Of a DNA stretch of 59,591 bases, positions 6,930 to 59,591 are shown one piece after another. The translations under genes were made by a program, and so were the position numbers. Position 1 is the first letter of the stretch, and each line of letters opens with the position of its first letter. Origin of the DNA: a virus (Duplodnaviria; Caudoviricetes); IMG/VR virus record IMGVR_UViG_3300049166_000062, positions 1-59,591 of that record; one strand, given 5' to 3'. The notes under the pieces are model-generated. The model saw only the letters and a program-made list of their open reading frames with translations, made no database searches and was not told the DNA's origin.

Positions 6930-6933
6930 CGCC

Positions 6934-8106: not shown

Positions 8107-8136
8107 GGTCGTCTCCTGTGTGGGAATGCGAAAAGG

Positions 8137-10065: not shown

Positions 10066-10244
10066 GGCCGCTGCTCCTCTTCCCAATAGTCGGGATGCTC
10101 GAGCCCGAGATGCTCCAGTTCGTACTGCGGCTTCCGGACTATCCCGGCCTCGCCATGGCGATCGCAGCGGAAGATGCCGTCATGACAAGCCTTGGTGAGG
10201 CAAGCCGCGCATACCGTGATGAGGCGGTAGCGGGCGGCGGTCAT
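10062..10244 (-). CDS. Small Cys-rich protein
   Basis: ITVCAACLTKACHDGIFRC motif; ATGA-coupled. Confidence 0.65.
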   Translation of the reverse strand: MTAARYRLITVCAACLTKACHDGIFRCDRHGEAGIVRKPQYELEHLGLEHPDYWEEEQRP

Positions 10245-10543
10245 TGTCGGCCCTCAGCCTTGGCGACGGCGGCGCGCCCGTCCTGGAGCAGCTGCTTCGA
10301 CGCAGGCGATGCAACGATGTCGGCGGCGATGTCGGCGCTCACCAAGCGCTGAACGATGGCCAACAGGTCAGGCGCGGCCGCCCAGAGGTTCGCGTTCAAA
10401 ACCTTGAGTTCCTTCGGGCCCCAGACCGACGCGACCTTCCGGCCGGTCTCGTCGACCAGGTAGACGTGGCCGGTGCCGTCATGCTCTGTCGGCAGTGCGG
10501 TCGTGATCCAGCGGAGCGATGTGGTGAACCCCGGGGCGCTCAT
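10241..10543 (-). CDS. Hypothetical phage protein (ANxxxAAAPDLL family)
   Basis: NANLWAAAPDLL...AAVAKAEG motif common in phage early genes. Confidence 0.75.
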   Translation of the reverse strand: MSAPGFTTSLRWITTALPTEHDGTGHVYLVDETGRKVASVWGPKELKVLNANLWAAAPDLLAIVQRLVSADIAADIVASPASKQLLQDGRAAVAKAEGRQ

Positions 10544-10731
10544 TGCCGCACCGCCTTCCTGGCGTCCTGATCGGTGGCGTCACGGGCGAACCGAAGTGTC
10601 CGGCAGACCGCGTCTTCGCCAACGGAAAGGACCTTCGCGATCTCCAGTGTATCGAAGCGGCCGCTGCCCCAAAGCACGATGCAGGCGAGCGCCTGGTCGC
10701 CGGTGAGGAAGCGCATGGTGGTCACGCTCAT
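10540..10731 (-). CDS. Small HTH protein
   Basis: DTLEIAKVLSVGEDAVCRTL; ATGA-coupled. Confidence 0.7.
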   Translation of the reverse strand: MSVTTMRFLTGDQALACIVLWGSGRFDTLEIAKVLSVGEDAVCRTLRFARDATDQDARKAVRQ

Positions 10732-18740: not shown

Positions 18741-18988
18741 AGAACAGACTGACGGACCTCAACGATCACCTGTTCGCACAGTTGGAGCGGCTCTCGGAGG
18801 AGTCCCTGACCGCGGAGCAGATCGAAACCGAGGTGAAGCGAACGGCCGCGATGGTCGATGTCGCTGACAAGATCGTCGACAACGCCCGGCTAGGGCTTCA
18901 GGCCGCCAAGCTGGTTGCCGACCACGGCGACCGCTTCCGAAAAGACCTGCCGATGCTCTCCGCCCCCGCCGTGGAGGGCAAGGCGTGA
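18737..18988 (+). CDS. Conserved phage protein (MKNxLxDLNxHLFxQLERL family)
   Basis: AAGGAG SD; this family typically precedes an HNH gene. Confidence 0.8.
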   Translation: MKNRLTDLNDHLFAQLERLSEESLTAEQIETEVKRTAAMVDVADKIVDNARLGLQAAKLVADHGDRFRKDLPMLSAPAVEGKA

Positions 18989-19638
18989 AGGGTCGCCAGA
19001 TCCGCTACAGCGAGGCGGAACTCGCCTTCATCGAATGGCGGCAGGCGATGAGCCGTCGTGCCCTGCACGCGGCCTTCGTGGCTGAGTTCGGGCGCATCGA
19101 TATCAAGGTCGACGACATCAAGTCGCTGTGCACTCGCAAGGGCTGGAAGACCGGGCGCGACGGGCGCTTCGATAAGGGTGCGGTGCCGGCGAACAAGGGC
19201 AAGAAGATGCCCTACAACGCGAATTGCGCCCGCACACAGTTTAAGAAGGGCAACCGAACCGGCCGGGCTAACCATGTCTACAAGCCGATTGGTAGCGAGC
19301 GCATTTCAAAAGATGGCTACCTGGAGCGGAAGGTTCATGATGGAATGCCGCTGCAGTCTCGGTGGCGCATGGTGCAGCACATCCGCTGGGAGGAGGTCAA
19401 TGGGCCGGTCGCCGCCGGATATGTGCTGAAATCGCGAGACGGCAACCGTCAGAACACAGACCCATCAAATTGGGAACTGGTCCCGCGCGCCATCCTGCCG
19501 CGCCTCAATGGCCGTTTCGGCCGCGACTACGACAGCGCTCCATCTGAACTGAAGCCGACCATCATGGCCGTTGCCAAGCTGGAACATGCCGCGCGCAGGA
19601 AGGCCCGCTCCCGCCCCGATGAAAGGTCGTCAGCATGA
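18985..19638 (+). CDS. HNH-signature protein with FxKG repeats
   Basis: GRFDKG..P.NKGK, TQFKKG, KPIGSER..KDGY, WEEVNGPV...DGNRQN...SNWELV. Confidence 0.8.
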   Translation: MKGRQIRYSEAELAFIEWRQAMSRRALHAAFVAEFGRIDIKVDDIKSLCTRKGWKTGRDGRFDKGAVPANKGKKMPYNANCARTQFKKGNRTGRANHVYKPIGSERISKDGYLERKVHDGMPLQSRWRMVQHIRWEEVNGPVAAGYVLKSRDGNRQNTDPSNWELVPRAILPRLNGRFGRDYDSAPSELKPTIMAVAKLEHAARRKARSRPDERSSA

Positions 19639-30102: not shown

Positions 30103-30275
30103 AGCGCCCCGATTTTGCTATCGACTTCCTCGCGCCCCCTCCCTCGCGCGGATACACTACCTTGATCTGCTCCTGCCCTTCGGCGGGCGGCCCTCAAGGC
30201 CGACCCGCAAGGCAGTGCACGGCATCTAAGGTAGTGCGCTACATCAGGGCCTTCATCTGCGTCCGGAGCTCAATC

Positions 30276-30605
30276 ATGGTCAGGATGCTGAAGCCGGCGC
30301 TGCGTACGCTGGATACCCGTACCGCCAGACCACCGGAGAAGAGAGCAGACCCTGAACTGCTGACCCCAGAACATAGGGCTTGGCGCGCCACTGTCCTGCG
30401 TCGTGCTGGATACAAGTGCGAGGCCGTCGATGATGGTCGACGCTGCACTGTCTCGGCTCCGTCACGTCTCTTCGCCGATCATATCCGGGAACGGAAGGAC
30501 GGCGGTGACCCTTTGGACCCAACCAACGGTCAATGCCTATGCGGCCGTCATCATACCCTGAAGACGGCGAGGGCGAGGGCGGTGAGGATGGCGGAGAGGT
30601 TCTAG
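30276..30605 (+). CDS. Terminase-associated HNH endonuclease (HK97 gp74-like)
   Basis: WR..VL.R..Y.C...C...ADHI....DGG......N.Q.LC..HH..KT; upstream of terS. Confidence 0.85.
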   Translation: MVRMLKPALRTLDTRTARPPEKRADPELLTPEHRAWRATVLRRAGYKCEAVDDGRRCTVSAPSRLFADHIRERKDGGDPLDPTNGQCLCGRHHTLKTARARAVRMAERF

Positions 30606-37479: not shown

Positions 37480-38160
37480 ATGACCGCCATGAAAAGCGGC
37501 AAGGTCATCAAAGCATTCCCGTTCGCGTTCGACGGGATCAATGTCGAGCATCTCGCCGTGGGCCGGCCCATATCCTTGCCGGAGAACACCTTCGACGGGC
37601 TAGAAAAGGCTGGCTACATCGAAGCCGGCAAGATCGAGGCAGCAGGGCTGCCTGAAGAGGAAGCTCTGAATCGGCGTCTCGTCGAGGCGATTGACAGGCG
37701 GCTCTCGGCTGCATCGGACCAGGAGCTGAAGGACATCATCGCCCGCTCGGGCACGCCCTACAGCGGCAACCTGGTGCATGCCCGGATGGTCTTCCTGGCC
37801 AAGGAGCAGATGATACGGGAAGCTGAAGGCGTCGCTCCGAAGCCAGCCGACCCGAACTCCGGTGTCACGGAACAGCCGCTATCCGCGCCGGGTCAGCCGA
37901 CGCCGCCTTCAGCCGCGGCAGCCGTCGACCAGCAGAAAGCGCAGCAGGAGGCTGCTGAAAAAGCAGCCGCTGAAGCGGGCGAGAACAAGGCTACCAACCA
38001 GTTCGGCGATCCGATGCCGACGCGCCAGGCACCGAAGGCCGAGGACCTCGACGGCATGAAGAAGGACGAGCTCGAGAAGCTCGCCGCCGATCGCGGTGTC
38101 GACATCTCGGGCGCGAAGACCAAGGCCGAGATCATCGACGCCATCAACACGGCGAAGTAA
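37480..38160 (+). CDS. Head-module protein with C-terminal HeH/SAP-like domain
   Basis: LDGMKKDELEKLA..RGVDISGAKTKAEIIDAI. Confidence 0.7.
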   Translation: MTAMKSGKVIKAFPFAFDGINVEHLAVGRPISLPENTFDGLEKAGYIEAGKIEAAGLPEEEALNRRLVEAIDRRLSAASDQELKDIIARSGTPYSGNLVHARMVFLAKEQMIREAEGVAPKPADPNSGVTEQPLSAPGQPTPPSAAAAVDQQKAQQEAAEKAAAEAGENKATNQFGDPMPTRQAPKAEDLDGMKKDELEKLAADRGVDISGAKTKAEIIDAINTAK

Positions 38161-47565: not shown

Positions 47566-50241
47566 ATGAACGTCCAAGATTATCTGCAGGCCGCCAGCCG
47601 GCAACGCTGGCGCTGGGGCGGTGGTGAATCTGGCTTCGAGGGCGACGATTGTACGCTGTTCGTCGCGAACTGGGCGTTCGAGCTCACCGGCCGTGATCCT
47701 GGCGTCGGTATCCGGGGCTCATACTCGACCGAGGACGAGGCAGTAAGGATCGTTGCTAGGGCAGGCGGGTTCGCGTGCTTCATCGACCAGCAGCTCCGCC
47801 CCACGGGCTGGATAAGGATCGCAGCGGAACCACGTGATGGCGACATCGGTGTAGTTCTTGCCCCGACCCTCCCGGATGGGGTCCTGAAGGCGGCACCGGT
47901 CATCAGGGCCGGCGGGCTGTGGGTTGGCCGTTCGGTACGCGGCCAGGTTGCCCGGGATTTCAAGACGGTCGAGGTCTGGCGGTTCGGCGATGTTGCTGTC
48001 CGCGACCTGGGCCCACCACCTCAGGTCAGCTACAGGGGGACCATCAGGAGCCGTTCGCAGGAGTTCGCCGGCGGCACCATGATGATGCAGCCCGCGCAGC
48101 AGCAGCAGACCGGCATCATCGAAAGCTTCTTCCTTTTCGCCATCACGGCGGCGCTGCCGGGTCTATCGAACGCCGCCATCGGCTTCCTGACCACCGGCTT
48201 AACCGCTCTTGCAACCACGGCGGTCTCCGTTGGGCTCAATGCGCTGCTGGCGCCATCGATGCCGAAGCCGCCGAAGCCTGCGGACGGCAAGTCTCCGAAG
48301 GTGCAGGCCGTGCCCCCCGTTCACTTCGGGGTGGGGACGAACCGCATCGCCGGGGCCTACATGCTCTGGGAGTCCAAGGCCGACCGTCTCTACGCGGTGA
48401 CCGCGCTCTGCGGCCACAAGATCAGCGCGATCAACGCGATCTATCTGCACGACGACACCGTTACGATCGCTGGAAACAATTTTGTATCGGCCGCAAGCAC
48501 CAATGATGGTCGATACCGTCCTGACCGGATATGGATCGATACTCGTCTCGGGCTGGCCACTGAGACCGCATATGACGTGATCGTCGATGCCTTGGAGCCG
48601 GAAGGTGTCTGGACCGACGACCATCGCGGCGACGGCACCGCGTCGCTGGGGATGATGTGCGTTGCGCCTGGCGCCGAGGATTATCAGAAGAGATTCCCGC
48701 ATGGCTCACCGCAGCCCTCGGTGGCCGCCGATCTCGCGCTGGTCTGGGACTTTAGAGACCCGGCGCAGGATCCAGAGGACGAGTCGACCTGGGAGTTTTC
48801 CCGCAACCCGGCGCTCTGCATGGTCTGGTGGCTCTGCTTCTGCCCCTATGGACCGAAGTGGGATTATACGAAGGCCATTGTCCCCGTTCAGGAACGCTGG
48901 GAGGAAGAAGCCGACATCTGCGATGAGGAGGTGCCCCGCGCCGCCGGCGGTACCGAACCGCGCTACGATGTCAACGGCTGGGCGACAACCGAAACCGACC
49001 CTATCGGCATCCTGAACTCGTTCCTCGCCGCCTGTGACGGCCACCTCGCCCAGCATGGCGACGGCACCCTTGTTCTCACCGTCGGCAAGTTCCGCGAGGA
49101 ACTGGTCGAGACCATCACGGATGCCGATATCGTCGGCCACTTCGTCCAGTACGATGTGCCCGAGGAGGATGAGGTCAACCGCCTGGTGCCGCGGTTCACC
49201 TATCCGGCAACGGACTATTCGACGGCGGTTGCCGATTACATCGAGAGCCCGGCCGACCAGGCCAAGGTAGGCAGGGTGCTCTCCGCCGAGGCTGATCTTG
49301 GCTGGGTCCACAACTGGCGACAGGCCAAGAGGCTGACCCTTCGCGAATGGAAGCGGCTCCAGCAGAAAAAGAGCGGCAACTTCGATCTCCGGCTATCGGC
49401 CGTCAACGCCATCCATGCCCGGTGGGTGCGTGTTGAGTCAACGTATCGGATCCCGTCGCTGAACGATGTGATCATCGAGAACCGCCGTTCCATTCTTGCC
49501 CTGATGCAGGGCGGCTTCCAGATGGAGTGGAAGAAGCATCCCGCGGACATCGACAACTGGACCCCGGCAACCGACGAGGGAGCGGCGCCACCGATCCCCG
49601 CGAAGCCGACGCAAAGCGAGCTAACGACCCCTACGATCGACACCGTGACGGCTGTCGGCAACGGCAGTTCGGTCTACATCCGCGTGGTCATCCTGGAGCC
49701 GCCGGAGGGGTCGGTCACTCCACTCGTCCGTTATCGGGTCAAGGATATCGGCGGCGGAGTTGCCGGTACCTGGATCGAGCAGGATTTCCCCGATGTCGAA
49801 GCATCGGCCGGGCTCATCACCATGAACACCAATCCCGTTCCGGCCGACGAACTGCTCGAGGTGCAGGCCGCGGTGAGGGCATCAGGCGGTACCGTATCGA
49901 ACTGGTCGACGCCGATCGTCGAGATCCTGGCAACCGTGGATGCGACGCCGCCGCTGGCGCTGCTATCGTTCTCGGCGTCGGATGGGGCAGGCCAGTTCGT
50001 CGCCAATTTTGGAACTGCCAACGATAGCCATCTGGCGAGCGTCGCTATCTATCGCGTGGCCTCCGGCGGCGTCCTGAACCGCACAACTGATTTGATGACG
50101 ACCCCTGCCGTTTCGCCAGGGGTCTCCTACGCGATCCCGGTAGTTTCGACGGTCGGGACTTTTGACATCTACGCCGAGCCGCTGAACCGGTCCGGGATAC
50201 CAGGACCGCTGTCAGGGCCGGACGCTGCGACCGTCAGCTAG
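47566..50241 (+). CDS. NlpC/P60-like domain fused to tail tip attachment (J-like) protein
   Basis: N-terminal W.WG...DC.LF.A.W....TG.DP..GIRG.Y; then J-like G..RIAG, DPAQDP....TW.FS.NPAL. Confidence 0.75.
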   Translation: MNVQDYLQAASRQRWRWGGGESGFEGDDCTLFVANWAFELTGRDPGVGIRGSYSTEDEAVRIVARAGGFACFIDQQLRPTGWIRIAAEPRDGDIGVVLAPTLPDGVLKAAPVIRAGGLWVGRSVRGQVARDFKTVEVWRFGDVAVRDLGPPPQVSYRGTIRSRSQEFAGGTMMMQPAQQQQTGIIESFFLFAITAALPGLSNAAIGFLTTGLTALATTAVSVGLNALLAPSMPKPPKPADGKSPKVQAVPPVHFGVGTNRIAGAYMLWESKADRLYAVTALCGHKISAINAIYLHDDTVTIAGNNFVSAASTNDGRYRPDRIWIDTRLGLATETAYDVIVDALEPEGVWTDDHRGDGTASLGMMCVAPGAEDYQKRFPHGSPQPSVAADLALVWDFRDPAQDPEDESTWEFSRNPALCMVWWLCFCPYGPKWDYTKAIVPVQERWEEEADICDEEVPRAAGGTEPRYDVNGWATTETDPIGILNSFLAACDGHLAQHGDGTLVLTVGKFREELVETITDADIVGHFVQYDVPEEDEVNRLVPRFTYPATDYSTAVADYIESPADQAKVGRVLSAEADLGWVHNWRQAKRLTLREWKRLQQKKSGNFDLRLSAVNAIHARWVRVESTYRIPSLNDVIIENRRSILALMQGGFQMEWKKHPADIDNWTPATDEGAAPPIPAKPTQSELTTPTIDTVTAVGNGSSVYIRVVILEPPEGSVTPLVRYRVKDIGGGVAGTWIEQDFPDVEASAGLITMNTNPVPADELLEVQAAVRASGGTVSNWSTPIVEILATVDATPPLALLSFSASDGAGQFVANFGTANDSHLASVAIYRVASGGVLNRTTDLMTTPAVSPGVSYAIPVVSTVGTFDIYAEPLNRSGIPGPLSGPDAATVS

Positions 50242-50312
50242 CCCGCCAAGACATTCCTTCGAATTCACAAGCTCCCTGCTGATCCGGCGGGGTGTTGCAT
50301 CGGAGCATCCGT

Positions 50313-52349
50313 ATGGTCGAACTTGCCAACACGATCTGGGCCGATGGTCCCGCTGGGGCGCCGCTAAACCCGGCGAAGTACCAGATGAGGGCGTGGGGGA
50401 CCTATGTCGAGGGCGCGATCACCGCTTTCACCTCCAATGGCGGGCTGATCTATGACACGAAGACCAGCCTCGACGCTGACCTGGCGCATGGAGCGAATTC
50501 GTCGGCATGGGTGATCGGCGATGCGGCAGTCGCCAATAACGGCATCTACCGGAAGTTGCTCGGGAGCGGTTTGGGCTCCTGGGAGCGCGTTGCTGATCTG
50601 CCGTACAGTTTCATCAAGGCGACCGATTCCGGTTCTGGATCCGCAGACGTCATCGTTGCAACCACGTCTATCCCTGTTCCGGCCGCCGACGGGGCCGCGC
50701 TTATCGCATTGAATATATTTGAAACGAATACCGCCAGCCCGGTAACCGTCTCATTTAATGCCGGGTCGGCTCTAACGGTAAAAACCAATTCGGGAAACAA
50801 CGTTGCGGTGGGCGGCCTCGTCGCCGGCGCGATTGTGCTCGGCTATGTGTCAGGCTCGACGTTTCGCCTTGTGTCCGACCAAGCTAGCGCCGCTATCGTT
50901 GCCGATGCGGAAGCAGTGCTGGAGGAAATTCGCGACCGCTACCTCGGAACGTTTGCGGATGATGCCGCCGCCACCGCCGGAGCCGTCACTCCTATAGAGG
51001 GGCAGCTTTATTTCAGAACGTCGGACGACATGCTCCGCGTCTACCGTGGTGGCGTTTGGGTGAGTGCCGAGGGAGAGCAGGGCATTCAAGGCGACCAGGG
51101 CATCCAAGGCATTCAGGGCGAGCGCGACACGCGCAATTTTTGCTGGGCTGGAAGCTTCGACCATGCTCGGCGCGGCCCGTCGATCGCCGGAACTGCTGGA
51201 CGTGTCGGCACGCTAGACGGCTGGACTATCGGCCGCTCTGGTGGCGTAACCGGCGTCACGGTAAGCCAGCAACAGGGCTCGCGCGGAACCAACCTTTGTA
51301 TGCAGGTGCAGAGGACCGCAGCAGACGCAAACACTGGCTCTATCGGCGCTGTGTTCAACCTGGGGCTTGACGACACTCGGCCACTGGCAGGCAAAGCCGC
51401 GATCAAGACGTACCGTGCCCGGTGCATGGTCCGCTCGGCAACCGTGGCAATCTCGCAAGCATCCCCCGGTGTCGTCACTTGGGCGTCTCATGGCCTCACG
51501 GTTGACAAGCCGCTACACTTCACCACAACGGGGGCGTTGCCTACCGGGCTGCTCCCAAGCACGAACTACTACGTCAAGACGGTGCTCGACGCGAACACCT
51601 TCACCGTCTCGGCGACCATCGGCGGCGCTGCGATTAACACCACGTCAGCGGGCTCTGGGGTCCACACTATCAACGCCTCGGACTATTCGGGCGCGGCGGG
51701 CGCGCTCAACGTCGCGGTCAAGGCGTCAAGTTCACTGATCGAGCAGGCGATCAACCTGACGAATGGGAACTATTCGGTAAGCGATAGCACGGCCACAAGC
51801 GCGGTGATCACGATCAACAGCCTGTGGCAAACGTTCACGATGCCGACGTGGGCCTACGCGGCCGACGTTGCGCAGACGGCGTTGCGTTTCCAGCAAGTTC
51901 CGACCGGCGTTGCCGGGGCCGCCGACGGCTTTCAGATTGAGGAAGTTCAGCTTCAGCTTGGCACGGTGGCGACAACGTTCGTTCCTGTCGACCCGGCCTA
52001 TTCACTGATGAAGGCGGAACAGCAATACCGCAAAAGCTACGGCCCGGACACTACGCCAGGATCAGTAACCTACAACGGCCGGCTTGCTTCGGTTGCTGTC
52101 GGAACAGCTATTGGCAAGGGTGCGCTGATGAATGCTGACTTCGGCGGCAACTCGATGCGAGCAATCCCGACAGTTGTTCTCTACAGCCCGCAAACCGGAG
52201 CGGCTGGGAAAATGGCGCAGGGGTCAACGGCTGACATCGATGCGACGGCTGTTCACCTGGGGCGAGGCGGCTTCGGCATCTGGAATAACGCGCTCGCGGT
52301 GGCTGGCGAGGTCTATTACGTCCACTACACGGCGGAAGCACGGCTATGA
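50313..52349 (+). CDS. Tail fibre / receptor-binding protein
   Basis: Conserved N-terminal anchor; collagen-like GEQGIQGDQGIQGIQGE; carbohydrate-binding-like domain ending VQLQLG.VAT.F...QQYRKSY; C-terminal MRAIPTV...HYTAEARL. Confidence 0.8.
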   Translation: MVELANTIWADGPAGAPLNPAKYQMRAWGTYVEGAITAFTSNGGLIYDTKTSLDADLAHGANSSAWVIGDAAVANNGIYRKLLGSGLGSWERVADLPYSFIKATDSGSGSADVIVATTSIPVPAADGAALIALNIFETNTASPVTVSFNAGSALTVKTNSGNNVAVGGLVAGAIVLGYVSGSTFRLVSDQASAAIVADAEAVLEEIRDRYLGTFADDAAATAGAVTPIEGQLYFRTSDDMLRVYRGGVWVSAEGEQGIQGDQGIQGIQGERDTRNFCWAGSFDHARRGPSIAGTAGRVGTLDGWTIGRSGGVTGVTVSQQQGSRGTNLCMQVQRTAADANTGSIGAVFNLGLDDTRPLAGKAAIKTYRARCMVRSATVAISQASPGVVTWASHGLTVDKPLHFTTTGALPTGLLPSTNYYVKTVLDANTFTVSATIGGAAINTTSAGSGVHTINASDYSGAAGALNVAVKASSSLIEQAINLTNGNYSVSDSTATSAVITINSLWQTFTMPTWAYAADVAQTALRFQQVPTGVAGAADGFQIEEVQLQLGTVATTFVPVDPAYSLMKAEQQYRKSYGPDTTPGSVTYNGRLASVAVGTAIGKGALMNADFGGNSMRAIPTVVLYSPQTGAAGKMAQGSTADIDATAVHLGRGGFGIWNNALAVAGEVYYVHYTAEARL

Positions 52350-53464
52350 GCCTGGCAGTCACCTTTGCCGACGTCGATCGGCTTGGCGTCACGATCGAAG
52401 GCGTTCCCTCCATCGTGCCGCGTGCGATGATGAACGCGGATTATCAGCGCCTGTTCGACATTGGGCTAAAGAAAATCGAGCTAGACCGCTTCGTCTACAA
52501 TGCGTTCCCCGGTTGGATGTTGCAGCGGGGCGCGTCACTGGCGTTCATCTTTTCCAGCGGGGCCGGTCACGCAAAGTCCCATCGCCAGATAGGCATTCGC
52601 ACCGATGACAATTTCCAGACGTTTTCGCGCGTGGTATTCTTCGAGAACGCGACGGGAGTGTACGACAACTCGTTTCTGGATGGGATGCTCGAAACGGGCG
52701 AGGTCTACCCGGCCAAGAACATCTGGAAAGTGCGGAAAACTGCTGGCGGCTACGAGAACAAAGTCCAGTCAACGATAGCCGTTACCGGCCAGGGCTCGGA
52801 CAACGGAACCTACGCGTTCTGGGCCGCGGAGCCTATCACATGGAACGGCAAGCTCTATTGCACAGGCTACCGGGTCAGCCCGACGCCTTACGTGTCGGCA
52901 CTGTTTGAAAGCAGCAACGGCGGCTGGGACTGGACCTTCACAACAATCATAGCTTCCGATCCTTCTTTGTGGCTGGGCGAGACGGCAATTGTTGAGTATG
53001 GCAACGGCAATTTCATTGCGGTTATCCGCGAGGAAATCGGCTCTGGCCGTCCACTCTACCTCGCGCGAAGCGTTGGCAACATCACATCCTGGACCGCGCC
53101 AACTCTGATCAGTGAAATCCAAGGCGTGCAGCCGGCGCTAACCCGGCTCGCTGATGGCGATATTCTTCTAACGGTCGGGCACCGCACTGGCTCGTCGGGA
53201 TTGTTCAACAGCGGAAAAATGCGCGACCAAGTGAACATCACCGGGATTGTGACGGTTCGATCCGCGAACAACGGTGTCACATGGCCGAACCGCGTGAACC
53301 TTGCCCCTATGTGGTCGACGGATGGCGGCCAGCCGATGCCCAAGGTTTTAAGCGACGGGCGGGTGGGCTTTCCCTGCTATCTCGCACCGGGGGCGACGAA
53401 CGGAGACATTGGCGTAGAGCCCGGAATTTACTTCGGCACATGCAACGGCGACACGATCACATGA
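52346..53464 (+). CDS. BNR/Asp-box beta-propeller (sialidase-like) protein
   Basis: Asp-box-like TDDNFQTF, SSNGGWDW, SANNGVTW; ATGA-coupled to the fibre gene. Confidence 0.7.
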   Translation: MSLAVTFADVDRLGVTIEGVPSIVPRAMMNADYQRLFDIGLKKIELDRFVYNAFPGWMLQRGASLAFIFSSGAGHAKSHRQIGIRTDDNFQTFSRVVFFENATGVYDNSFLDGMLETGEVYPAKNIWKVRKTAGGYENKVQSTIAVTGQGSDNGTYAFWAAEPITWNGKLYCTGYRVSPTPYVSALFESSNGGWDWTFTTIIASDPSLWLGETAIVEYGNGNFIAVIREEIGSGRPLYLARSVGNITSWTAPTLISEIQGVQPALTRLADGDILLTVGHRTGSSGLFNSGKMRDQVNITGIVTVRSANNGVTWPNRVNLAPMWSTDGGQPMPKVLSDGRVGFPCYLAPGATNGDIGVEPGIYFGTCNGDTIT

Positions 53465-53696: not shown

Positions 53697-53894
53697 TCAG
53701 CGTCGGCGCGTGAAGTTAGCGCGAGGGGCTGTCTGGTAGTTGTAGACGCGTGGGGCTTTATCGCCACCTTCTTCGATCTCTTGGTTGTCTTCCCAGTCGC
53801 CTGGGTCAACAAAAGCAGGATGAGCGAGAAGGTAGCGCTCGTATTCATCATCGTTCATGTCGTTCAAGATGGCTGGATCTATGGGTTTAGGCAC
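53697..53894 (-). CDS. Small acidic protein
   Basis: GGAGG SD; GTG overlaps the stop of the TPR-GT gene. Confidence 0.55.
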   Translation of the reverse strand: MPKPIDPAILNDMNDDEYERYLLAHPAFVDPGDWEDNQEIEEGGDKAPRVYNYQTAPRANFTRRR

Positions 53895-55755
53895 GGTGCT
53901 TCCTCCGCGGGGTTGCGCGCTTAGCGTCTACCATATCTGAAATCCTACCGGCAACCGCTCGCATAGCACTTAGCCGGTCGTGGATCGGGTCGCCCCATAT
54001 AATCTGTGTCTTAGGCGCCCAGATGTCGCTGCCATCTTCGTTACGCCGCCACATCGTGGACACATGCGTTGAAACCAACAAGGTAGGTACCCCGGCCGCG
54101 GCCGCAAGCTCCCCAGTGGTGGTAAACGGCGAAATTACCATGTCCAGGCACGATGACATGGCTACTTGGCCTTCCATGTCATCGACCAAGTCGAGGCCCT
54201 CCGGTATCCGAAGATTAACGATAGAGCGAAGATGGGCGATTTCTTCGTCCGTTGCGTTTGGCTGAAGCAGCCAGAAATCGACGTTTTCCAACTCCGACAA
54301 TTGGGCGAGATCTTCCACTTTCAGGTAGTGGCGGTTCCGCGCGACGGTCTGCAACATGCTTCGCCAAGCAACGCCAACCTGAAGTCGTCCGTTCGATCCG
54401 ATTAGTTGACGCCATTCGGCGACCAGGTCCGGCTTGGGCTGGAGAGGGTAAACGTCTCTTGGAAATGAATCTTTGGTGGGCCTTATGTCTGCGAGTGTGT
54501 CGAGCAGCGAGCAGACGAGGTCAACCCCCTCCCGACCGGCGATGATCACCTGGTCGGAAACGCATTGGAACAGCTTCGAATCCGTCAGCAGCGTACGGTC
54601 TGACATCTCGCGCACAATCTCGCGCCTGTGACGCGAGACGGGGAGGAAGTTGATCTTCGGGAACGTGCGCGACATGATCGGCGCAAGGCGCGGATCTGAT
54701 GTGATGGTCAGCGACCCGAAATGCGACGCAAGATCAGGGTAGGCGGAAGCCATTCTCAACTCATCGCCAGGCCCGCCTTCGGTGATCAAGATCGCCTTTT
54801 TTTGGCGGTAGCCGCCGGACACGATGTCGATATCGAGCGGGTGCTGGTTGGCATTGAAACATTTGGCGATAGCCAAGCTGATGGGACGCTTACGATAGAG
54901 AAGGTACGCATCCTTGACTTTGCCCTGGGCCTGCAACAAGTCCATAGTCAGGGGGGTGAACGGTCGCGGGTCTGGCTCGCCAATTCTGGACCGCCGGATC
55001 AAGGCTTCACCGGCAGCTGGCTGGCCGATCTCAAAAAGACAGCGCGCTATGCTGCCCACTGATTTCGCCAACTCCGGCGTCGATTCATAAATCGCTATGG
55101 CCTCGCTGTGCCTATTCTTGCCTTCGAGAGCCATTCCCTTGTGGACTAACAGGTTGTGTATCGCCTTGGCCTTTTTGGGTCCGGCAGGATCCTTGTGGGC
55201 GACTTTGAGGCCGCGTTCGCAGACCGTCAGAACATCGTCAAATCGTTCGAAAAAATAAAGGTACTCGGCGGCTCGAACGTACGCTATCGACGTATTGCCC
55301 ATAGCGGATACGGTCTTCAGAGCTGTCCTGAGACTGGCGTCCGGCGGCTCCACGCCGAGAGCCTTAAGCTGTCGAAAGCCAACAATGTCAATCGGGTGAT
55401 GCTTGAGCAACCGATGCGTGGCCGCAATAGCTAATTCGCGGTTCCCCATGTTGCTTAGAATGCTGGCTCTTAGCCGCAAGGCATTTATGTTGCTCGGATC
55501 GCCGCGCAAGGCGCTGTCGACGGTCGAAAGCGCCTGCGGGAGCTTCCACGTATCCAAGAGGCTTTTCGCCTCTGCAATGAGGTCGGGGCGCGGGACAGAG
55601 ACTAGCTTAAGCTTTTTGTTTGGAAAGATAATCCCGCGAATCTGGCGTCTAGTGGCTTCGGGCAAAGAACGGCGATATAGGACTTTCAGTGCGCGGAGGC
55701 ATTGTTCTAGAAGCGGCACCCCCGCCGGAATTGAGCGATCAAGATCGGTCACCAA
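53887..55755 (-). CDS. TPR-repeat + GT-B glycosyltransferase (FlmG/FlbA-like)
   Basis: N-terminal TPR-like helices; EGGPGDEL, DPRL..IM.RTFP, VGVAWRS, PEGLDL.DD....A....LDMVIS..T....LAAA.GVP. Confidence 0.7.
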   Translation of the reverse strand: MVTDLDRSIPAGVPLLEQCLRALKVLYRRSLPEATRRQIRGIIFPNKKLKLVSVPRPDLIAEAKSLLDTWKLPQALSTVDSALRGDPSNINALRLRASILSNMGNRELAIAATHRLLKHHPIDIVGFRQLKALGVEPPDASLRTALKTVSAMGNTSIAYVRAAEYLYFFERFDDVLTVCERGLKVAHKDPAGPKKAKAIHNLLVHKGMALEGKNRHSEAIAIYESTPELAKSVGSIARCLFEIGQPAAGEALIRRSRIGEPDPRPFTPLTMDLLQAQGKVKDAYLLYRKRPISLAIAKCFNANQHPLDIDIVSGGYRQKKAILITEGGPGDELRMASAYPDLASHFGSLTITSDPRLAPIMSRTFPKINFLPVSRHRREIVREMSDRTLLTDSKLFQCVSDQVIIAGREGVDLVCSLLDTLADIRPTKDSFPRDVYPLQPKPDLVAEWRQLIGSNGRLQVGVAWRSMLQTVARNRHYLKVEDLAQLSELENVDFWLLQPNATDEEIAHLRSIVNLRIPEGLDLVDDMEGQVAMSSCLDMVISPFTTTGELAAAAGVPTLLVSTHVSTMWRRNEDGSDIWAPKTQIIWGDPIHDRLSAMRAVAGRISDMVDAKRATPRRKHRA

Positions 55756-55777: not shown

Positions 55778-56737
55778 TTAGCGTTTCCAGAAGCTGTCGA
55801 AATAGAGCCAAGTTTGCACCGGGAATGCGAGGCGCGCGACCTCTCGATCAACCTCCCGGAACGGCGAAAGGGTTTTGGGTGAAATGACGCCCCTATCCCC
55901 GGGAGCCTCAGCGCCTCTGCGATATTTGATATTGTGCATCAGGAACATGGCTTTCGCGCCAGCTGCCGACTTAAGATATCGTGACGCTTCCTCTCCCATC
56001 TCCTGAAAACTCGCAGCGTTCCACAGAAGGTCGAATTCCTGGTTCTCTACGATAGGAAATTTCCAGTGAGGCAGAATATTGATCTTGCCCTTCTGAATGT
56101 CCGAGAATGACTGAACGCCGGAGCAGGCTCGGTAGTCGGCCACATGGCCGGTTCCCTCGAATACTTTCGAAAGATATTGGTTGCAGACGTATAGCTGCGT
56201 CGGCAAATCAAAAAGCACGATGGTTAGATCGGGATGTGCTTTCTTCAGCATTTCGGCCTGTTTTCCTGAGCCGGATCCAACCTCGATCAGGACCTGATCA
56301 GAAAACCGCATGTGCTGCGAAACGAAGGCGTATCGGCAATAAAAGTTCAACCAGGAGAGGGTGTAGAAGCGGCCATCGATCTCGAAGCCCTGGGGATTCC
56401 CGACACGGGACGCTTCGAGTTCCTCGATCGGCTTCGCACCATCACCGAGAAAGCATGAACGAGCGGCATGAAACATCTCTTCGGGCGTACCGTTTGGCCG
56501 CGCCGGGTCGGGGTTGATGTCGATTGCCCCGAACCGCGGCAAAACGGATCCAGGCGTTCCCTTCGGGTGCCTGGTGCCCCGGAAATTATGAAGGCCAACG
56601 GTTCGCAGGAAATCTACAAAGCTTTGGGAATAGGTCGCCCATCGCGCCGTTGGATTGAACGCAGACATTGCGCGCTTCTCATCAGCCAGGATGGATTCCA
56701 AAAGCTCGATATCGTTCTCTACCTGCCGAACTGACAA
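55778..56737 (-). CDS. Putative sugar O-methyltransferase (class I SAM)
   Basis: IEVGSGSG, VLFDLP.QLY....YL, FDL.WN..SFQEM, VGNP; TTG start after an AGGAGG SD. Confidence 0.75.
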   Translation of the reverse strand: MSVRQVENDIELLESILADEKRAMSAFNPTARWATYSQSFVDFLRTVGLHNFRGTRHPKGTPGSVLPRFGAIDINPDPARPNGTPEEMFHAARSCFLGDGAKPIEELEASRVGNPQGFEIDGRFYTLSWLNFYCRYAFVSQHMRFSDQVLIEVGSGSGKQAEMLKKAHPDLTIVLFDLPTQLYVCNQYLSKVFEGTGHVADYRACSGVQSFSDIQKGKINILPHWKFPIVENQEFDLLWNAASFQEMGEEASRYLKSAAGAKAMFLMHNIKYRRGAEAPGDRGVISPKTLSPFREVDREVARLAFPVQTWLYFDSFWKR

Positions 56738-56780
56738 ATGAATTCCTCCTGGACTGCGTTGGTGCCCCCGCCCAGCGCCT

Positions 56781-57519
56781 TCCTCTGGCACAGCCTGTCT
56801 GAAAACTCAACTCAAAGAGGAGCCGCTTGCCCCAGCCGGGCGGACCAAAGCCCGCTCGTAGCGGCGATTTCCGCGTTGCGAACCTCCGCAATGCCGTCCG
56901 CATTTAGCCAGGGGCATTCCCGGGCTGGGTAATCTTGGCTGCTACATCCAAACGAATTGATTCGGCGAGTTCCCGCGCAGCGCGATTCTCGGCGTCTCGT
57001 TCAGCCCGCAAAGACGCAAACTCTTGACGTGGTCTGTCGAACGACGCTGAAATTTCGCGTGTTCCCTCTGCTACTTGGGCCCCGGTGGTCACGTCTGTAA
57101 GAACATAGGTTCCTACCAACCTTAGGCTGCCGGCTGACGGTCGATCTTCCCCCGTCGCAGCAACAGGCCGCCTAGCGACGGCAAGCACTGTCGCGGCCAC
57201 AGTCAGTGTCATTGAGTATCGCGGGTTCATCGGCTGACCTTGGCCGCGCCCAAACATGAATATGAGATGGTTTCGGACTTCCTGCGCTACGCGTGTTTCG
57301 GGCTCCGCGATGGCGATAGATGCCATCTCTTTGACTACCCCGCCTGCGTCACCGCCAACCCAAGCAGGCCCCTCACTATAGAGGGGCTTGACCGTGCAAC
57401 CTGTGGCACACGCCAGAAATAATATTAGAGCCGCTTTAAGCATGCCAGTGTCCCATACAACAGGCACAAAGCCGTCCGCGCCCTTAGCTCCTCTCGCACA
57501 GCCTCTCTGAAAACTCAAC
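56781..57519 (+). repeat. 31-bp direct repeat pair flanking lptE
   Basis: TCCTCT(G/C)GCACAGCCT(G/C)TCTGAAAACTCAAC at 56781-56811 and 57489-57519, with 2 mismatches. Confidence 0.85.
56904..57443 (-). CDS. lptE: LPS-assembly lipoprotein LptE homolog
   Basis: Lipobox ATG-C then TVKPLY; RVAQEVRNHLIF; ASFDRPRQEFASLRAERDAENRAARELAE, the alphaproteobacterial LptE signature. Confidence 0.85.
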   Translation of the reverse strand: MLKAALILFLACATGCTVKPLYSEGPAWVGGDAGGVVKEMASIAIAEPETRVAQEVRNHLIFMFGRGQGQPMNPRYSMTLTVAATVLAVARRPVAATGEDRPSAGSLRLVGTYVLTDVTTGAQVAEGTREISASFDRPRQEFASLRAERDAENRAARELAESIRLDVAAKITQPGNAPG

Positions 57520-57536
57520 GCTGAAAGGATCAGCAA

Positions 57537-58238
57537 ATGACCACGCTGCTGGATGTCCAGCGGGCGCTGTTGGCGCGCGACTATGACATCGGGAAGTCTC
57601 GGGATGATGGTCTGCCTGGGCCAGCGACGTTCGGAGCCATGCTGCGAGCGCTGAACGAGCATGTGCCGTTGCCGATCGCGGTGTCGCCGCCGCCTGTCGC
57701 GGACCCGATCGGCCTCGTGCCTATGGCGTGGATGCCTTGGGCGCAGATGACGCGCATCGTGTTCCACTGGACGGCCGGCGGCAACAAGGCGAGCCTGCTC
57801 GACCGCAAGCACTACCACCTGCTGGTTGAGCATGTGGACGGCGTGGCACGACTGGTTCGCGGGGTCCCTTCGATCGTGCTCAATGATGCGCCACTGAAGA
57901 AGGGTTATGCCGCCCATACTCTCAACCTCAACGGCGATGCCATCGGAACCACAATGTGCGGGATGGCAGGCGCGCAGGAAAGCCCGTTCAAGGCCGGATC
58001 GGCTCCGATCATCAAGGCGCAGTGGGATCTGCTCGTCGATGCTCACGTCGACCTCTGCCGGCGCTATTCGATCCCGGTGACGCCGAAGACGCTGCTTTCC
58101 CACGCCGAAGTGCAGGCCACGCTCGGGGTACGTCAAAGAGGAAAATGGGATATAGCGGTTCTCCCCTTCGATCCCTCATTCAATACAGCAAAGAAGGTGG
58201 GCGATCGAATGAGGGCAGAGGTGCAGGCCAAACTTTAA
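57537..58238 (+). CDS. Endolysin: peptidoglycan-binding domain + Zn amidase (Amidase_2)
   Basis: VQ.AL....YD.G...DG..GPAT; IVFHWTAG, HYH, AHT..LN..AIG, SHAEV, GKWDI. Confidence 0.88.
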   Translation: MTTLLDVQRALLARDYDIGKSRDDGLPGPATFGAMLRALNEHVPLPIAVSPPPVADPIGLVPMAWMPWAQMTRIVFHWTAGGNKASLLDRKHYHLLVEHVDGVARLVRGVPSIVLNDAPLKKGYAAHTLNLNGDAIGTTMCGMAGAQESPFKAGSAPIIKAQWDLLVDAHVDLCRRYSIPVTPKTLLSHAEVQATLGVRQRGKWDIAVLPFDPSFNTAKKVGDRMRAEVQAKL

Positions 58239-58726
58239 GCGGATCGTGCAAAGTCTCCAAATTCCCGTTTCGCGGCGGCATCGTACACGGCTTTCGCCTC
58301 GTCCAATGTTCGATAGCAGCCGAGATATTGCAGCTTCCCGTTGACCCGGAGGCGCGCTTCAAAACGGCCGTTGCGGTGAAGGCGGACGCCCTTCACGCCG
58401 AGCTTGTTGTTTCTATAGACACCGGAATTGGCCTTGTTCTGCGTTTGGGTCGCTTCTCTTAAGTTGTCGAAGCGATCATCCGAAGGGTGAAGATTACGGT
58501 GGTCGGTCTGATCTGTGGGCCACGTTCCGGTCATATAGAGCCAAGCGAGGTTGCTTGCCGCGTAGAGCGTCCCGTCGATCTGAATTCGACGGTATCCCTC
58601 ACTGTTGATTGTTCCAGCGGCAGTCGTGACTTGGGAATTGGACCGTCTCACCCGCCAGCGGAATAGGCCAGTTTTCGGATCATAGTCCAGAATTTCGCGC
58701 AGCTTCTTTTGCGTTAACTCGCCCAA
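58235..58726 (-). CDS. HNH-AP2 homing endonuclease
   Basis: LREILDYDP.TG.F.W, DHRN..PSDDR.DNLREAT..QN, AP2-like GVKGV...YLG.Y....EA...Y..AA...FG.FA. Confidence 0.85.
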   Translation of the reverse strand: MGELTQKKLREILDYDPKTGLFRWRVRRSNSQVTTAAGTINSEGYRRIQIDGTLYAASNLAWLYMTGTWPTDQTDHRNLHPSDDRFDNLREATQTQNKANSGVYRNNKLGVKGVRLHRNGRFEARLRVNGKLQYLGCYRTLDEAKAVYDAAAKREFGDFARSA

Positions 58727-58891: not shown

Positions 58892-59242
58892 ATGATCAAG
58901 CGCATTCTTATGGCGATCGCAGGCGTGTGCCTGCTCGTCATCACCGGGTGCAATCTCTCGGAGAGCACCTGCAACACGATGGACGCTCTCAAGAGCAGTT
59001 TCGACCGTTTCGCGGCTGAAGGTGAGTTCTCGCGGAAGACGGTCATCGCGGTGAATGGCGTCTACGAACCGGCCGCCCGCGCCTGCGAGAACGCTGGGAC
59101 CGTGACGCAGGTTGAGATGATCGCTCTAGCGACCGACGCCATCCTCGCCATCAGGCAGGCCATGCGGGAGAGCGATCGCGCCGCGACCGTCATGTATCCG
59201 CAGGTTCGCGAGCTTGAAAGGATTCTCGACCATGTTCGCTAA
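58892..59242 (+). CDS. Lipoprotein in the lysis cassette
   Basis: AAGGA SD; lipobox ITG-C. Confidence 0.7.
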   Translation: MIKRILMAIAGVCLLVITGCNLSESTCNTMDALKSSFDRFAAEGEFSRKTVIAVNGVYEPAARACENAGTVTQVEMIALATDAILAIRQAMRESDRAATVMYPQVRELERILDHVR

Positions 59243-59591
59243 GCTTCTCACCCCATTCACCACGGCCGCGCCTCTCGGCGTTGCCGTTCGTGATGTCGCT
59301 GTGGCGCTGGGCGTCATTCTCGCCACGCTTGGCACGCTCGGCATGCTGTCACCTGAACAGGTTGACCAGTTCCGGTCGTACCTGGAAACGATCACCGACC
59401 CCACCGTGATCGCGGCGTTCGGCGTTCTGCTGGGTGTCGGAACGTCTGTCTATCGAACGTTTTGGAAGTCGAGTTCCGACCGCGGCGCCGAGGTGGCCAA
59501 GGAGACCGACGCCAAGATTCCGAAGGATGATCCGGTTGTGATCGAAACGCCGGGCCATCGTCCCAACATCATTGTCCCATCGAAGCCATGA
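59232..59591 (+). CDS. Holin-like membrane protein
   Basis: Two predicted TM segments with a charged C-terminal tail; lysis-module position. Confidence 0.6.
   Translation: MFAKLLTPFTTAAPLGVAVRDVAVALGVILATLGTLGMLSPEQVDQFRSYLETITDPTVIAAFGVLLGVGTSVYRTFWKSSSDRGAEVAKETDAKIPKDDPVVIETPGHRPNIIVPSKP

What the first reader, a model, noticed from the sequence alone, without database searches (positions are those of the whole stretch)
56904..57443. Prophage-encoded LptE, a core outer-membrane biogenesis lipoprotein
Seen: a full-length LptE-like lipoprotein with lipobox and C-terminal signature, outside its usual leuS-lptE-holA context. Established: LptE plugs the LptD barrel and is needed for LPS insertion, and some phage lipoproteins block their outer-membrane receptors from inside. 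Inference: it may remodel or occlude LptD for superinfection exclusion, or help export LPS modified by the neighbouring enzymes.
Basis: partly seen in the sequence, partly recalled or inferred. Interest (0 to 1): 0.7.

Follow-up and report, generated by a model that had tools for sequence, protein, structure and literature searches.

The report
Prophage-carried LptE outer-membrane lipoprotein gene
A temperate phage of a soil rhizobium-like bacterium carries its own intact, long-maintained copy of LptE, the lipoprotein that plugs the cell's lipopolysaccharide exporter, next to two sugar-modifying enzyme genes, which suggests that the phage remodels its host's outer surface, although what the gene does has not been tested.

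Summary
Window 56904-57443 (-) encodes a 179-aa lipoprotein that passes Pfam LptE (33.5 bits, cut-off 23). It folds as LptE (pLDDT 90.3; best PDB match Caulobacter CC_3750, then LptE chains of LptDE). It lies inside a siphovirus-like provirus, between tail-fibre and lysis genes.

It is not a recent capture.
- With a broken second copy in genome G371, P0002 and P0003 it forms a separate clade (99/98 support). It is 47-57% identical to chromosomal LptEs.
- dN/dS against the G371 copy is about 0.10 (dS 1.16).
- GC3 is 0.54, against 0.69-0.97 in 112 chromosomal lptE genes.
- A 46-nt direct repeat brackets the gene.
- A related prophage (G295) has the same slot without lptE.

The gene shares a minus-strand cassette with a sugar O-methyltransferase (TIGR04371) and a TPR protein whose C-terminal half resembles GT9. 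A modelled complex with a likely host-genus LptD barrel scores 0.88 (best control 0.00). This is a textbook pair, so the pass shows likeness only.

Best reading (inferred, about 0.4): a lysogenic-conversion factor that occupies host LptD and alters the translocon or surface, probably to exclude other phages. Rivals are a helper LptE for modified LPS, a passenger gene and a lysis role. No expression data exist. No phage LptE was found in the phage databases or papers searched.

The parts
56904..57443 (-). lptE-like gene (179 aa, P0001), the finding itself
   Evidence: ORF and translation. Pfam LptE 33.5 bits against cut-off 23. AF2 pLDDT 90.3 and Foldseek LptE hits.
57396..57443 (-). Signal peptide and lipobox (residues 1-16, MLKAALILFLACATGC; Cys16 is the predicted lipidation site)
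   Evidence: Cys16 is invariant in alignment A1 of 70 LptE sequences. The ATG start is shared with the G371 copy.
56781..56826 (+). Direct repeat copy 1 (46 nt), 3' of lptE and upstream of the methyltransferase gene
   Evidence: Repeat family D1, 83% identical to copy 2, spacing 708 nt. The 24-nt core occurs twice in the window against 0 in 100 shuffles.
57489..57534 (+). Direct repeat copy 2 (46 nt), the leader directly before the endolysin ATG at 57537
   Evidence: It is homologous to the 3' part of a ~130-nt element in G371, G109 and G295.
55778..56791 (-). Putative sugar O-methyltransferase. The true start is probably the TTG at 56737, behind an AGGAGG site.
   Evidence: NCBIfam TIGR04371 146.8 bits, cut-off 44. 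The start is inferred from the sequence.
53887..55755 (-). TPR protein with a GT9-like C-terminal half (phrog_36377)
   Evidence: TPR_14 and TPR_19. phrog_36377 730 bits. ESM Atlas nearest clusters carry Glyco_transf_9, score 0.94, a lead only. 31.6% identity to a Rhizobium phage gene annotated as a glycosyltransferase.
57537..58238 (+). Endolysin (N-acetylmuramoyl-L-alanine amidase type), divergent from lptE
   Evidence: Pfam Amidase_2 32.1 bits, cut-off 26. phrog_5867 endolysin, E 7.5e-36.
58235..58726 (-). HNH endonuclease
   Evidence: HNH_3 33 bits. phrog_99, E 2.8e-60.
58892..59242 (+). Second lipoprotein (116 aa, lipobox VITGC), a possible spanin or exclusion protein
   Evidence: Translation. 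phrog_25336 (unknown function), E 1.7e-05.
59214..59591 (+). Membrane protein that runs off the window end (holin-like by position and hydrophobic stretches)
   Evidence: Translation. No family found.
47566..53464 (+). Central tail fibre (J-like), tail fibre and BNR/sialidase-like protein. These are the last late structural genes before the cassette.
   Evidence: phrog_5616 and phrog_31. BNR_2 25 bits, below the cut-off of 31.4. 84% nt identity to a prophage in G295.

Best explanation
Shown. The gene is a genuine, intact member of the LptE family. It sits as an accessory gene (a 'moron') inside a temperate siphovirus-like prophage and is read against the late genes, between the tail-fibre and lysis modules. 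It belongs to a small lineage of mobile lptE copies that has evolved under purifying selection, apart from the chromosomal lptE genes of Phyllobacteriaceae-like hosts.

Inferred. In lysogens the protein is exported and lipidated at Cys16, and it enters the lumen of newly made host LptD in place of, or beside, the host's own LptE. The sugar O-methyltransferase and the TPR/GT9-like enzyme encoded on the same strand would act with it as an LPS-directed lysogenic-conversion cassette. The most likely pay-off is exclusion of superinfecting phages, or of other agents that dock on LPS or LptD. The enzymes would change the sugar receptor and the foreign plug would change the LptDE translocon. This would resemble the small lipoprotein Rtp45, which blocks LptD-binding coliphages, but here the change would come from swapping the plug subunit, not from adding an extra lipoprotein.
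For: Identity.
- Pfam LptE above cut-off.
- LptE fold.
- 66 of the 88 positions that are at least 80% conserved in 112 chromosomal LptEs are kept in all three mobile copies compared: window, P0002 and the G371 copy.

Inside the phage.
- Integrase at the left end; terminase, portal, capsid and tail genes follow.
- An endolysin lies to the right of lptE.
- A related prophage, G295:C280 (84% nt identity over 4533 nt of tail genes), has the order fibre, TPR gene, endolysin, but no methyltransferase and no lptE.
- A 46-nt direct repeat brackets lptE.

Maintained, not recent.
- dN 0.111 and dS 1.157 against the G371 mobile copy over 160 codons.
- GC3 is 0.539 in the window and 0.53-0.59 in G371, against 0.687-0.967 (median 0.81) in 112 chromosomal lptE genes.
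- The mobile clade has 99/98 support.

The likely host lineage keeps its own lptE.
- G371 has a leuS-lptE copy that is 52% identical to P0001.

LPS theme of the neighbours.
- TIGR04371 at 146.8 bits.
- GT9-like lead.

LptD binding, in silico only.
- ipSAE 0.88 against a best control of 0.00. The mark was reached by 58 of 80 solved complexes and 2 of 110 mismatched pairs. The runs share at least 88% of their contacts and the partner's pLDDT is at least 79. My own alignments were used, so the counts hold only roughly.
- 38 of the 63 retained conserved positions lie in the modelled interface, against 74 of all 163 residues.

Precedent.
- A periplasmic lipoprotein, Rtp45, binds LptDE and displaces LptD extracellular loops 4 and 5 to exclude phages (PMC12685063, abstract and the passages found).
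Against: - No evidence of expression. The Shine-Dalgarno site is weak, and promoter and terminator scans gave no more hits than shuffled sequence.
- The LptD-LptE model is a textbook pair, so the pass can come from likeness to solved LptDE structures. The LptD used is from G295, a presumed and unproven host genus.
- Mobile-clade-specific substitutions are not enriched at the modelled interface: 7 of 16, against 74 of 163 residues overall.
- A plug swap can only affect newly assembled LptD and must outcompete host LptE. That is a slower route than the known exclusion lipoproteins, which bind receptors already in place (my reasoning).
- The only other copy whose context could be read (G371) is broken by two frameshifts, lies beside an IS630 element and is not in a prophage, so the gene is dispensable there.
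- The lineage is rare. One of 400 scored family genomes has a close extra copy. None was found in 50,697 phage records, in IMG/VR by two pattern scans or in PHROGs.
- NCBIfam gave no family for P0001.
Confidence: 0.4

Rival explanations
1. Helper, not blocker. The phage LptE is a working spare or adapted plug that keeps LPS export and LptD assembly efficient in lysogens whose LPS is altered by the neighbouring methyltransferase and glycosyltransferase-like enzyme. It has no role in excluding phages.
For: Strong retention of family-conserved positions (66 of 88) and of interface positions. Purifying selection. The modelled complex looks like ordinary LptDE. It is encoded on the same strand as two LPS-type enzymes. 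In G371 the mobile copy also heads a same-strand run of genes that includes sugar or inositol dehydrogenase-like enzymes.
Against: The host lineage keeps its own lptE. I know of no case where LPS decoration requires a dedicated LptE (recalled, not searched beyond). The related prophage carries the TPR/GT9-like gene without any lptE.
Confidence: 0.25
2. Passenger. It is a host-derived gene picked up by illegitimate recombination and carried without benefit to phage or lysogen.
For: It is rare. The G371 copy has decayed. The ribosome-binding site is weak. The slot is mosaic and holds different genes in related prophages.
Against: dN/dS is about 0.10 with dS of about 1.16 between two mobile copies, so most of their divergence accumulated under constraint. 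The reading frame is intact, with all 18 invariant or nearly invariant family positions of alignment A1. GC3 has shifted well outside the chromosomal range in both mobile copies, which argues for long residence in mobile DNA.
Confidence: 0.12
3. Lysis accessory. As a lipoprotein encoded next to the endolysin, it would help breach the outer membrane at the end of infection, for example by titrating LptD and stopping LPS insertion, or by acting like a spanin component.
For: It lies 93 nt from the endolysin start and is an outer-membrane lipoprotein by homology.
Against: It is transcribed divergently from the endolysin and against all late genes. The phage already has a lipoprotein and a membrane protein in the lysis module. 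It has no C-terminal transmembrane segment and no similarity to any PHROG lysis family. The related prophage's lysis module lacks it.
Confidence: 0.05

Closest known systems
Chromosomal LptE (RlpB) of Hyphomicrobiales and other Alphaproteobacteria: Pfam PF04390; solved relative 4KWY (Caulobacter CC_3750); LptE chains of LptDE complexes such as 4Q35, 5IVA and 9RPT
   Same: Same family, length, lipoprotein N-terminus, conserved motifs (CTV[RK]PLY, QEVRNHLIF, SFDRPRQEFA, RA.RDAENRAARELAE) and fold. It is modelled inside the LptD barrel.
   Different: It is encoded in a prophage moron slot, not after leuS. It is only 47-57% identical to any chromosomal copy found. It forms a separate clade. Its GC3 of 0.54 lies below the chromosomal range. 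Its signal peptide is shorter. Sixteen positions that are conserved in chromosomal copies are replaced in all mobile copies compared: 40, 46-48, 52, 72, 93, 101, 103, 108, 110, 163, 169-171 and 174.
Superinfection-exclusion lipoproteins of siphophages: Rtp45 (binds LptDE), T5 Llp (binds FhuA), Cor
   Same: Phage-encoded lipoproteins of siphoviruses that act from the periplasmic side on the outer-membrane receptor of the phage. Rtp45 targets the same complex, LptDE (PMC12685063, passages).
   Different: Those proteins are small (Rtp45 about 6 kDa) and unrelated to LptE, and they bind beside LptE on finished receptors. This one is a 17-kDa homologue of the receptor's own plug subunit. No sequence family is shared (0 PHROG families). 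Exclusion activity is not shown here.
Prophage LPS or O-antigen conversion cassettes (for example gtrABC and O-acetyltransferase modules of Shigella and Salmonella phages; recalled, not searched here)
   Same: Accessory genes in a temperate phage that alter LPS and thereby the phage receptor. Here these are a sugar O-methyltransferase and a GT9-like protein, read against the late genes.
   Different: To my knowledge, and in the searches, none of those cassettes includes a component of the LPS export machine itself.

Membership tests
LptE (PF04390, LPS-assembly lipoprotein) | Profile match above the curated cut-off | tested here: met
   33.5 bits against 23, E 7.7e-08. The genome-level search gave 34 bits. 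NCBIfam gave no family.
LptE (PF04390, LPS-assembly lipoprotein) | N-terminal lipoprotein signal peptide with an invariant lipidated Cys | tested here: met
   Cys16 falls in the one invariant Cys column of 70 sequences. The lipobox ATGC is atypical at position -3 and the signal peptide is short. Lipidation itself cannot be tested here.
LptE (PF04390, LPS-assembly lipoprotein) | LptE fold (helices packed on a beta-sheet) | tested here: met
   AF2 pLDDT 90.3, pTM 0.79. Foldseek: 4kwy E 1.8e-11 with target-normalised TM-score 0.85, then LptE chains of 8h1s, 4q35, 5iva and 9rpt at E 4.5e-07 to 5.8e-06.
LptE (PF04390, LPS-assembly lipoprotein) | Sits inside the LptD barrel as its plug | tested here: inconclusive
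   The model with G295 LptD residues 215-818 scores 0.88 against a best control of 0.00. This is a textbook pair and the LptD comes from a presumed host, so it shows likeness and not binding.
LptE (PF04390, LPS-assembly lipoprotein) | Usual chromosomal context directly after leuS | tested here: not met
   The window gene lies between a methyltransferase gene and an endolysin gene in a provirus. The chromosomal copy of G371 overlaps the end of a class-I tRNA synthetase gene.
LptE (PF04390, LPS-assembly lipoprotein) | Binds LPS and is needed for LptD assembly and LPS insertion | not testable with these tools
   Needs complementation and biochemical tests.
Phage superinfection-exclusion lipoproteins (Rtp45, Llp, Cor type) | Small lipoprotein (about 6-8 kDa) encoded beside the receptor-binding protein gene | tested here: not met
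   The mature protein has 163 residues. The gene lies about 3.4 kb after the end of the BNR-like gene and about 4.5 kb after the end of the fibre gene, behind two enzyme genes.
Phage superinfection-exclusion lipoproteins (Rtp45, Llp, Cor type) | Sequence relationship to known exclusion lipoprotein families | tested here: not met
   0 PHROG families at E<=0.01. No tblastn hit in 50,697 phage records.
Phage superinfection-exclusion lipoproteins (Rtp45, Llp, Cor type) | Blocks adsorption of the phage to its outer-membrane receptor | not testable with these tools
   The receptor of this phage is unknown. Plating assays are needed.
Prophage LPS-conversion cassette | LPS or sugar-modifying enzymes encoded as accessory genes of a temperate phage | tested here: met
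   TIGR04371 sugar O-methyltransferase at 146.8 bits against 44. GT9-like C-terminal half of the TPR protein, a lead only. Integrase and repressor are present.
Prophage LPS-conversion cassette | Expression in the lysogen and altered LPS | not testable with these tools
   No RNA holder was listed.

The most novel reading that the evidence does not exclude
Plug-swap exclusion. The prophage makes its own version of the internal plug subunit (LptE) of the essential LPS translocon. Newly assembled LptD in lysogens then carries a foreign plug that reshapes the parts of LptD seen from outside, while LPS export still works. This would make the cell resistant to phages or bacteriocins that dock on LptD, and the neighbouring enzymes would disguise the LPS itself. 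It would be receptor masking achieved by replacing a subunit of an essential machine, not by adding an inhibitor.
Probability: 0.25. Interest if true: 0.85.

Novelty: new variant of a known kind. Interest (0 to 1): 0.58.

Why it matters
LptDE is essential and surface-exposed, and it is both a drug target and a phage receptor. A phage-borne LptE that has been kept under selection would show that viruses can carry a subunit of this machine. It would also offer a natural variant for asking how the plug shapes LptD's outer loops and gate. If it excludes phages, that would be a new route to receptor masking. If it only supports export of modified LPS, it would link LPS decoration to translocon specificity. 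Either result can be tested directly with simple expression and plating experiments in non-pathogenic rhizobia.

Tried and rejected
Phage and virus databases.
- tblastn of P0001 against 50,697 phage records: no match.
- IMG/VR pattern scans with P0001 and with alignment A1: 7 and 64 pattern hits, none confirmed.
- These tools may leave out records of, or near, the window's own genome, so this is 'not found', not 'absent'.
- PHROGs: 0 families.
- The BFVD fold search gave only weak hits, best E 2.3e-04 with query-normalised TM-score 0.23. Rank 43 is an entry named 'LPS-assembly protein [virus sp. ctd0M1]' at E 1.7e-02; I could not follow it up.

Other genomes and metagenomes.
- Metagenome scan: 50 relatives. 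The best full-length match was 54% identical; two short partial matches reached 56-59%.
- Genome scan: 152 relatives, the best 80 kept, 47-56% identity.
- Five of the six other genomes with two matches were re-searched (G126, G272, G311, G312, G384). Both copies in each are 38-47% identical to P0001, so they are not the mobile type. G259 was not re-searched; both of its copies are 46% identical.

Expression and signals.
- No RNA holder was listed. Only one run holds the stretch, and it may be the source.
- Promoter and terminator scans gave no more hits than shuffles.
- Rfam found only a sub-threshold Hammerhead_II hit.

Donor.
- An AU test did not reject placing the mobile clade with the G371/G295 chromosomal lptE (p 0.37). 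The donor lineage is therefore unresolved.

Neighbours of the G371 copy.
- The 380-aa and 727-aa proteins next to the G371 copy are not similar to the window's methyltransferase or TPR protein. They have no Pfam or NCBIfam family.

- Supplements of PMC12685063 were not seen.

Rejected ideas.
- That the duplicated 46-nt repeat supplies a promoter to each minus-strand unit. The related prophage G295:C280 keeps only the other (5') part of the long element.
- That mobile-clade substitutions mark the LptD interface. There is no enrichment.

Full report
**Observation.** The stretch 56904-57443 holds, on the minus strand, an uninterrupted 179-codon frame, P0001.
- It passes the Pfam LptE model at 33.5 bits against a cut-off of 23.
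- It has 1004 homologues at E<=0.001 in the 5.8-billion-protein collection. Those that carry a name are called LPS assembly lipoprotein LptE of Aminobacter, Mesorhizobium and Nitratireductor, at 50-56% identity.
- The exhaustive search of cluster representatives found 1157 proteins at E<=0.001, 28 of them at E<=1e-30.
- An AlphaFold2 model built on 70 aligned sequences has mean pLDDT 90.3.
- Its best structural matches are Caulobacter CC_3750 (4kwy, E 1.8e-11), then LptE chains of solved LptDE complexes. 4kwy is also the only PDB hit by sequence.
- Cys16 aligns with the only invariant Cys of the family and is followed by the conserved TV[KR]PLY.
- NCBIfam named no family. The signal peptide is short and the ribosome-binding site weak.

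**Where it lies.** The window is a provirus record of 59,591 bases, estimated 93% complete.
- PHROG and Pfam scans show, from left to right, an integrase, a CI-like repressor, replication genes, terminase, portal, protease, major capsid, a tape measure, a J-like central fibre, a tail fibre and a BNR-like protein.
- Three genes then follow on the opposite strand. The first is a TPR protein of phrog_36377, whose C-terminal half resembles Glyco_transf_9 in the ESM Atlas (score 0.94, a lead only). The second is a sugar O-methyltransferase (TIGR04371, 146.8 bits against 44). The third is lptE.
- To the right, on the late strand again, come an Amidase_2 endolysin, an HNH gene on the opposite strand, a 116-aa lipoprotein and a membrane protein that runs off the window.
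- lptE is therefore internal to the phage, in the accessory slot between the tail and lysis modules, and is read against the late genes.

**How it got there.** A 46-nt direct repeat (83% identical, 708 nt apart) brackets the gene. One copy is the leader just before the endolysin ATG. The other lies between lptE and the methyltransferase gene.
- The repeat is the 3' part of an element of about 130 nt. That element was found in 3 of 401 genomes of the family sample (G109, G295, G371), twice in each.
- One G295 copy lies in contig C280, which holds a prophage with 84% nt identity to the window over 4533 nt of tail genes. The other lies in contig C278, which shares only a fibre N-terminal segment (about 71% nt) with the window.
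- The C280 prophage has the order fibre, TPR gene (opposite strand), element, muramidase-type endolysin. It has no methyltransferase and no lptE.
- The window's arrangement therefore looks like an insertion of lptE into the lysis leader, with duplication of part of it.

**A mobile lineage.** Among 400 scored genomes of the family, 386 have a match to P0001. This tally includes the unpublished genome G081; G294 was not scored.
- Only G371 has an extra copy close to the window's. It is 76% identical in DNA and 82% identical over 160 aligned codons.
- That copy is on a 747-kb contig. It is followed 3' by the same element, is flanked by an IS630-type transposase, is not in a prophage, and is broken by two frameshifts.
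- G371's other copy overlaps the end of a class-I tRNA synthetase gene, the usual leuS-lptE context. It is 52% identical to P0001.
- In a careful maximum-likelihood tree of 49 rows, five rows form one clade at 99/98 support on a stem of 0.41: the window protein, P0002 (82% identical, from a 1240-bp contig), both pieces of the G371 copy, and P0003.
- The nearest neighbours of that clade are the LptE rows of G402 and G336, each genome's only LptE match, at 86/88 support, which is not decisive.
- An AU test does not reject a position beside the G371/G295 chromosomal copies (p 0.37). The donor is unresolved.

**Selection and composition.** Between the window gene and the G371 mobile copy, dN is 0.111 and dS is 1.157 over 160 codons, a ratio of about 0.10.
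- GC3 is 0.539 in the window gene and 0.53-0.59 in the G371 pieces.
- GC3 is 0.687-0.967 (median 0.81) in 112 chromosomal lptE genes and 0.70-0.82 in the phage's structural genes.
- Of the 88 positions at least 80% conserved in those 112 genes, 66 are kept in all three mobile copies compared, 16 are replaced in all three and 6 are mixed.
- These results argue against a recent neutral capture. They show a protein that was constrained for most of its history in mobile DNA.
- The decay of the G371 copy shows that the constraint depends on context.

**Binding to LptD.** LptD of G295 and G371 was found with PF04453, and 31 LptD sequences were aligned.
- A model of G295 LptD residues 215-818 with P0001 residues 17-179 scored 0.88 in the median run, against 0.00 for the best of three controls.
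- That mark was reached by 58 of 80 solved complexes and 2 of 110 mismatched pairs. The runs share at least 88% of their contacts and the partner's pLDDT is at least 79. My own alignments were used, so the counts hold only roughly.
- LptDE complexes are solved, so this shows that the phage protein still looks like a plug, not that it binds.
- Retained conserved positions are over-represented in the modelled interface: 38 of 63, against 74 of 163 residues overall. The 16 clade-specific replacements are not over-represented: 7 of 16.

**Function.** Everything here is inference.
- The opposite-strand accessory position, the LPS-type neighbours and the temperate life style fit a lysogenic-conversion cassette aimed at the cell surface.
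- A known precedent is Rtp45. This small phage lipoprotein binds LptDE at the periplasmic side and displaces LptD loops 4 and 5, so that the receptor-binding protein cannot dock (PMC12685063; I read the abstract and the passages found, not the supplements).
- My best reading, at about 0.4, is that the phage LptE enters host LptD and changes the translocon or surface so as to exclude other phages or LptD-directed agents, together with the enzymes that alter LPS.
- The main rival, at about 0.25, is a helper plug that keeps export of modified LPS efficient.
- A passenger gene (0.12) fits poorly with the selection data. A lysis role (0.05) fits poorly with the gene's orientation and its absence from the related prophage.
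- Points against the best reading are listed in full in the Against line. The main ones are the lack of expression data, a plug swap that works only on newly assembled LptD, the rarity of the lineage, and the loss of the gene in G371.

**Novelty.** No phage-borne LptE was found in any of the following.
- 50,697 phage records.
- IMG/VR, by two pattern scans.
- PHROGs.
- Five full-text paper searches, on LptE with prophage, LptE with phage-encoded, LPS-assembly lipoprotein with phage, LptD with superinfection exclusion, and Mesorhizobium prophage conversion.

One BFVD entry named 'LPS-assembly protein' from an uncultured virus appeared as a weak structural hit and could not be followed up. The protein is an ordinary member of the LptE family by sequence and fold. 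What is unusual is its carriage by a phage, its separate mobile lineage and its company.

Noticed in passing
window 56781-56826 and 57489-57534; L114 9889-10010; L219 7971-8100; L186 6434-6563 (-); L185 7811-7889 (-); L224: The 46-nt repeat around lptE is the 3' part of a conserved element of about 130 nt (GGGCGGCTCGGGGTTTACAAGACCGTCGAGCGA...). It was found in only 3 of 401 family genomes, twice in each. It lies before lysis genes in a related prophage, next to the mobile lptE in G371, and in a polysaccharide gene cluster beside an IS5-like remnant in G109. Its role (late leader, promoter or recombination site) is unknown, and it has no Rfam match.
   Followed up: partly
L114 (G371:C2) 4317-10565, minus strand: The broken mobile lptE copy heads a same-strand run of genes: a 380-aa protein with a SAM-binding-like GxGxG motif, a 727-aa protein with no family, a zinc-ADH-like protein and a Gfo/Idh/MocA-like oxidoreductase. 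An IS630-type transposase lies just upstream. This is a second case of a mobile lptE followed by putative sugar-acting enzymes that are not homologous to those in the window.
   Followed up: partly
window 58892-59242 (+): A second lipoprotein (116 aa, lipobox VITGC, phrog_25336 of unknown function) lies in the lysis module, followed by an overlapping membrane protein. It could be an outer-membrane spanin or an exclusion lipoprotein of the usual small kind.
   Followed up: no
window 53887-55755 (-) and L185 7911-9725 (+): The TPR plus GT9-like protein (phrog_36377) is conserved in the same slot of the related G295 prophage (32-58% identity in tblastx pieces; 1198 bits to the PHROG there). Its target is unknown. 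TPR fused to a GT9-like domain is unusual for an LPS heptosyltransferase relative.
   Followed up: partly
window 50292-53464 versus L185 9944-13186: The fibre (685 aa) and the BNR/sialidase-like protein (372 aa) are separate genes in the window. In the G295 prophage they correspond to one 1080-aa fibre with endosialidase-N and BNR matches. This suggests a polysaccharide-degrading tail fibre.
   Followed up: no
window 4184-5515, 18985-19638, 30162-30605, 37480-38160, 58235-58726: The window has many HNH or endonuclease VII-type nuclease genes (five or more). One is fused to a DNA polymerase exonuclease-like part, and one sits on the opposite strand inside the lysis module.
   Followed up: no
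window 2786-3199 (-) and 5394-6059 (-): Dihydrofolate reductase-like and 5'-3' deoxyribonucleotidase-like genes lie in the early region. These are nucleotide-metabolism accessory genes.
   Followed up: no
window 58925-59015 (-): Sub-threshold Rfam hit to Hammerhead_II (27.2 bits, gathering score 37, E 0.027), inside the 116-aa lipoprotein gene. Probably chance.
   Followed up: no
G126, G259, G272, G311, G312, G384 (loci L115-L124): Six further genomes of the family sample show two LptE matches each, both at 38-47% identity to P0001, some with an internal stop. They could be assembly duplicates, contamination or true paralogues. None is of the mobile type.
   Followed up: partly
BFVD entry A0A8S5REG3 (rank 43): A 170-aa protein of an uncultured virus is named 'LPS-assembly protein'. 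It is a weak structural match (E 1.7e-02) and hints that LptE-like genes may occur in other viromes.
   Followed up: no
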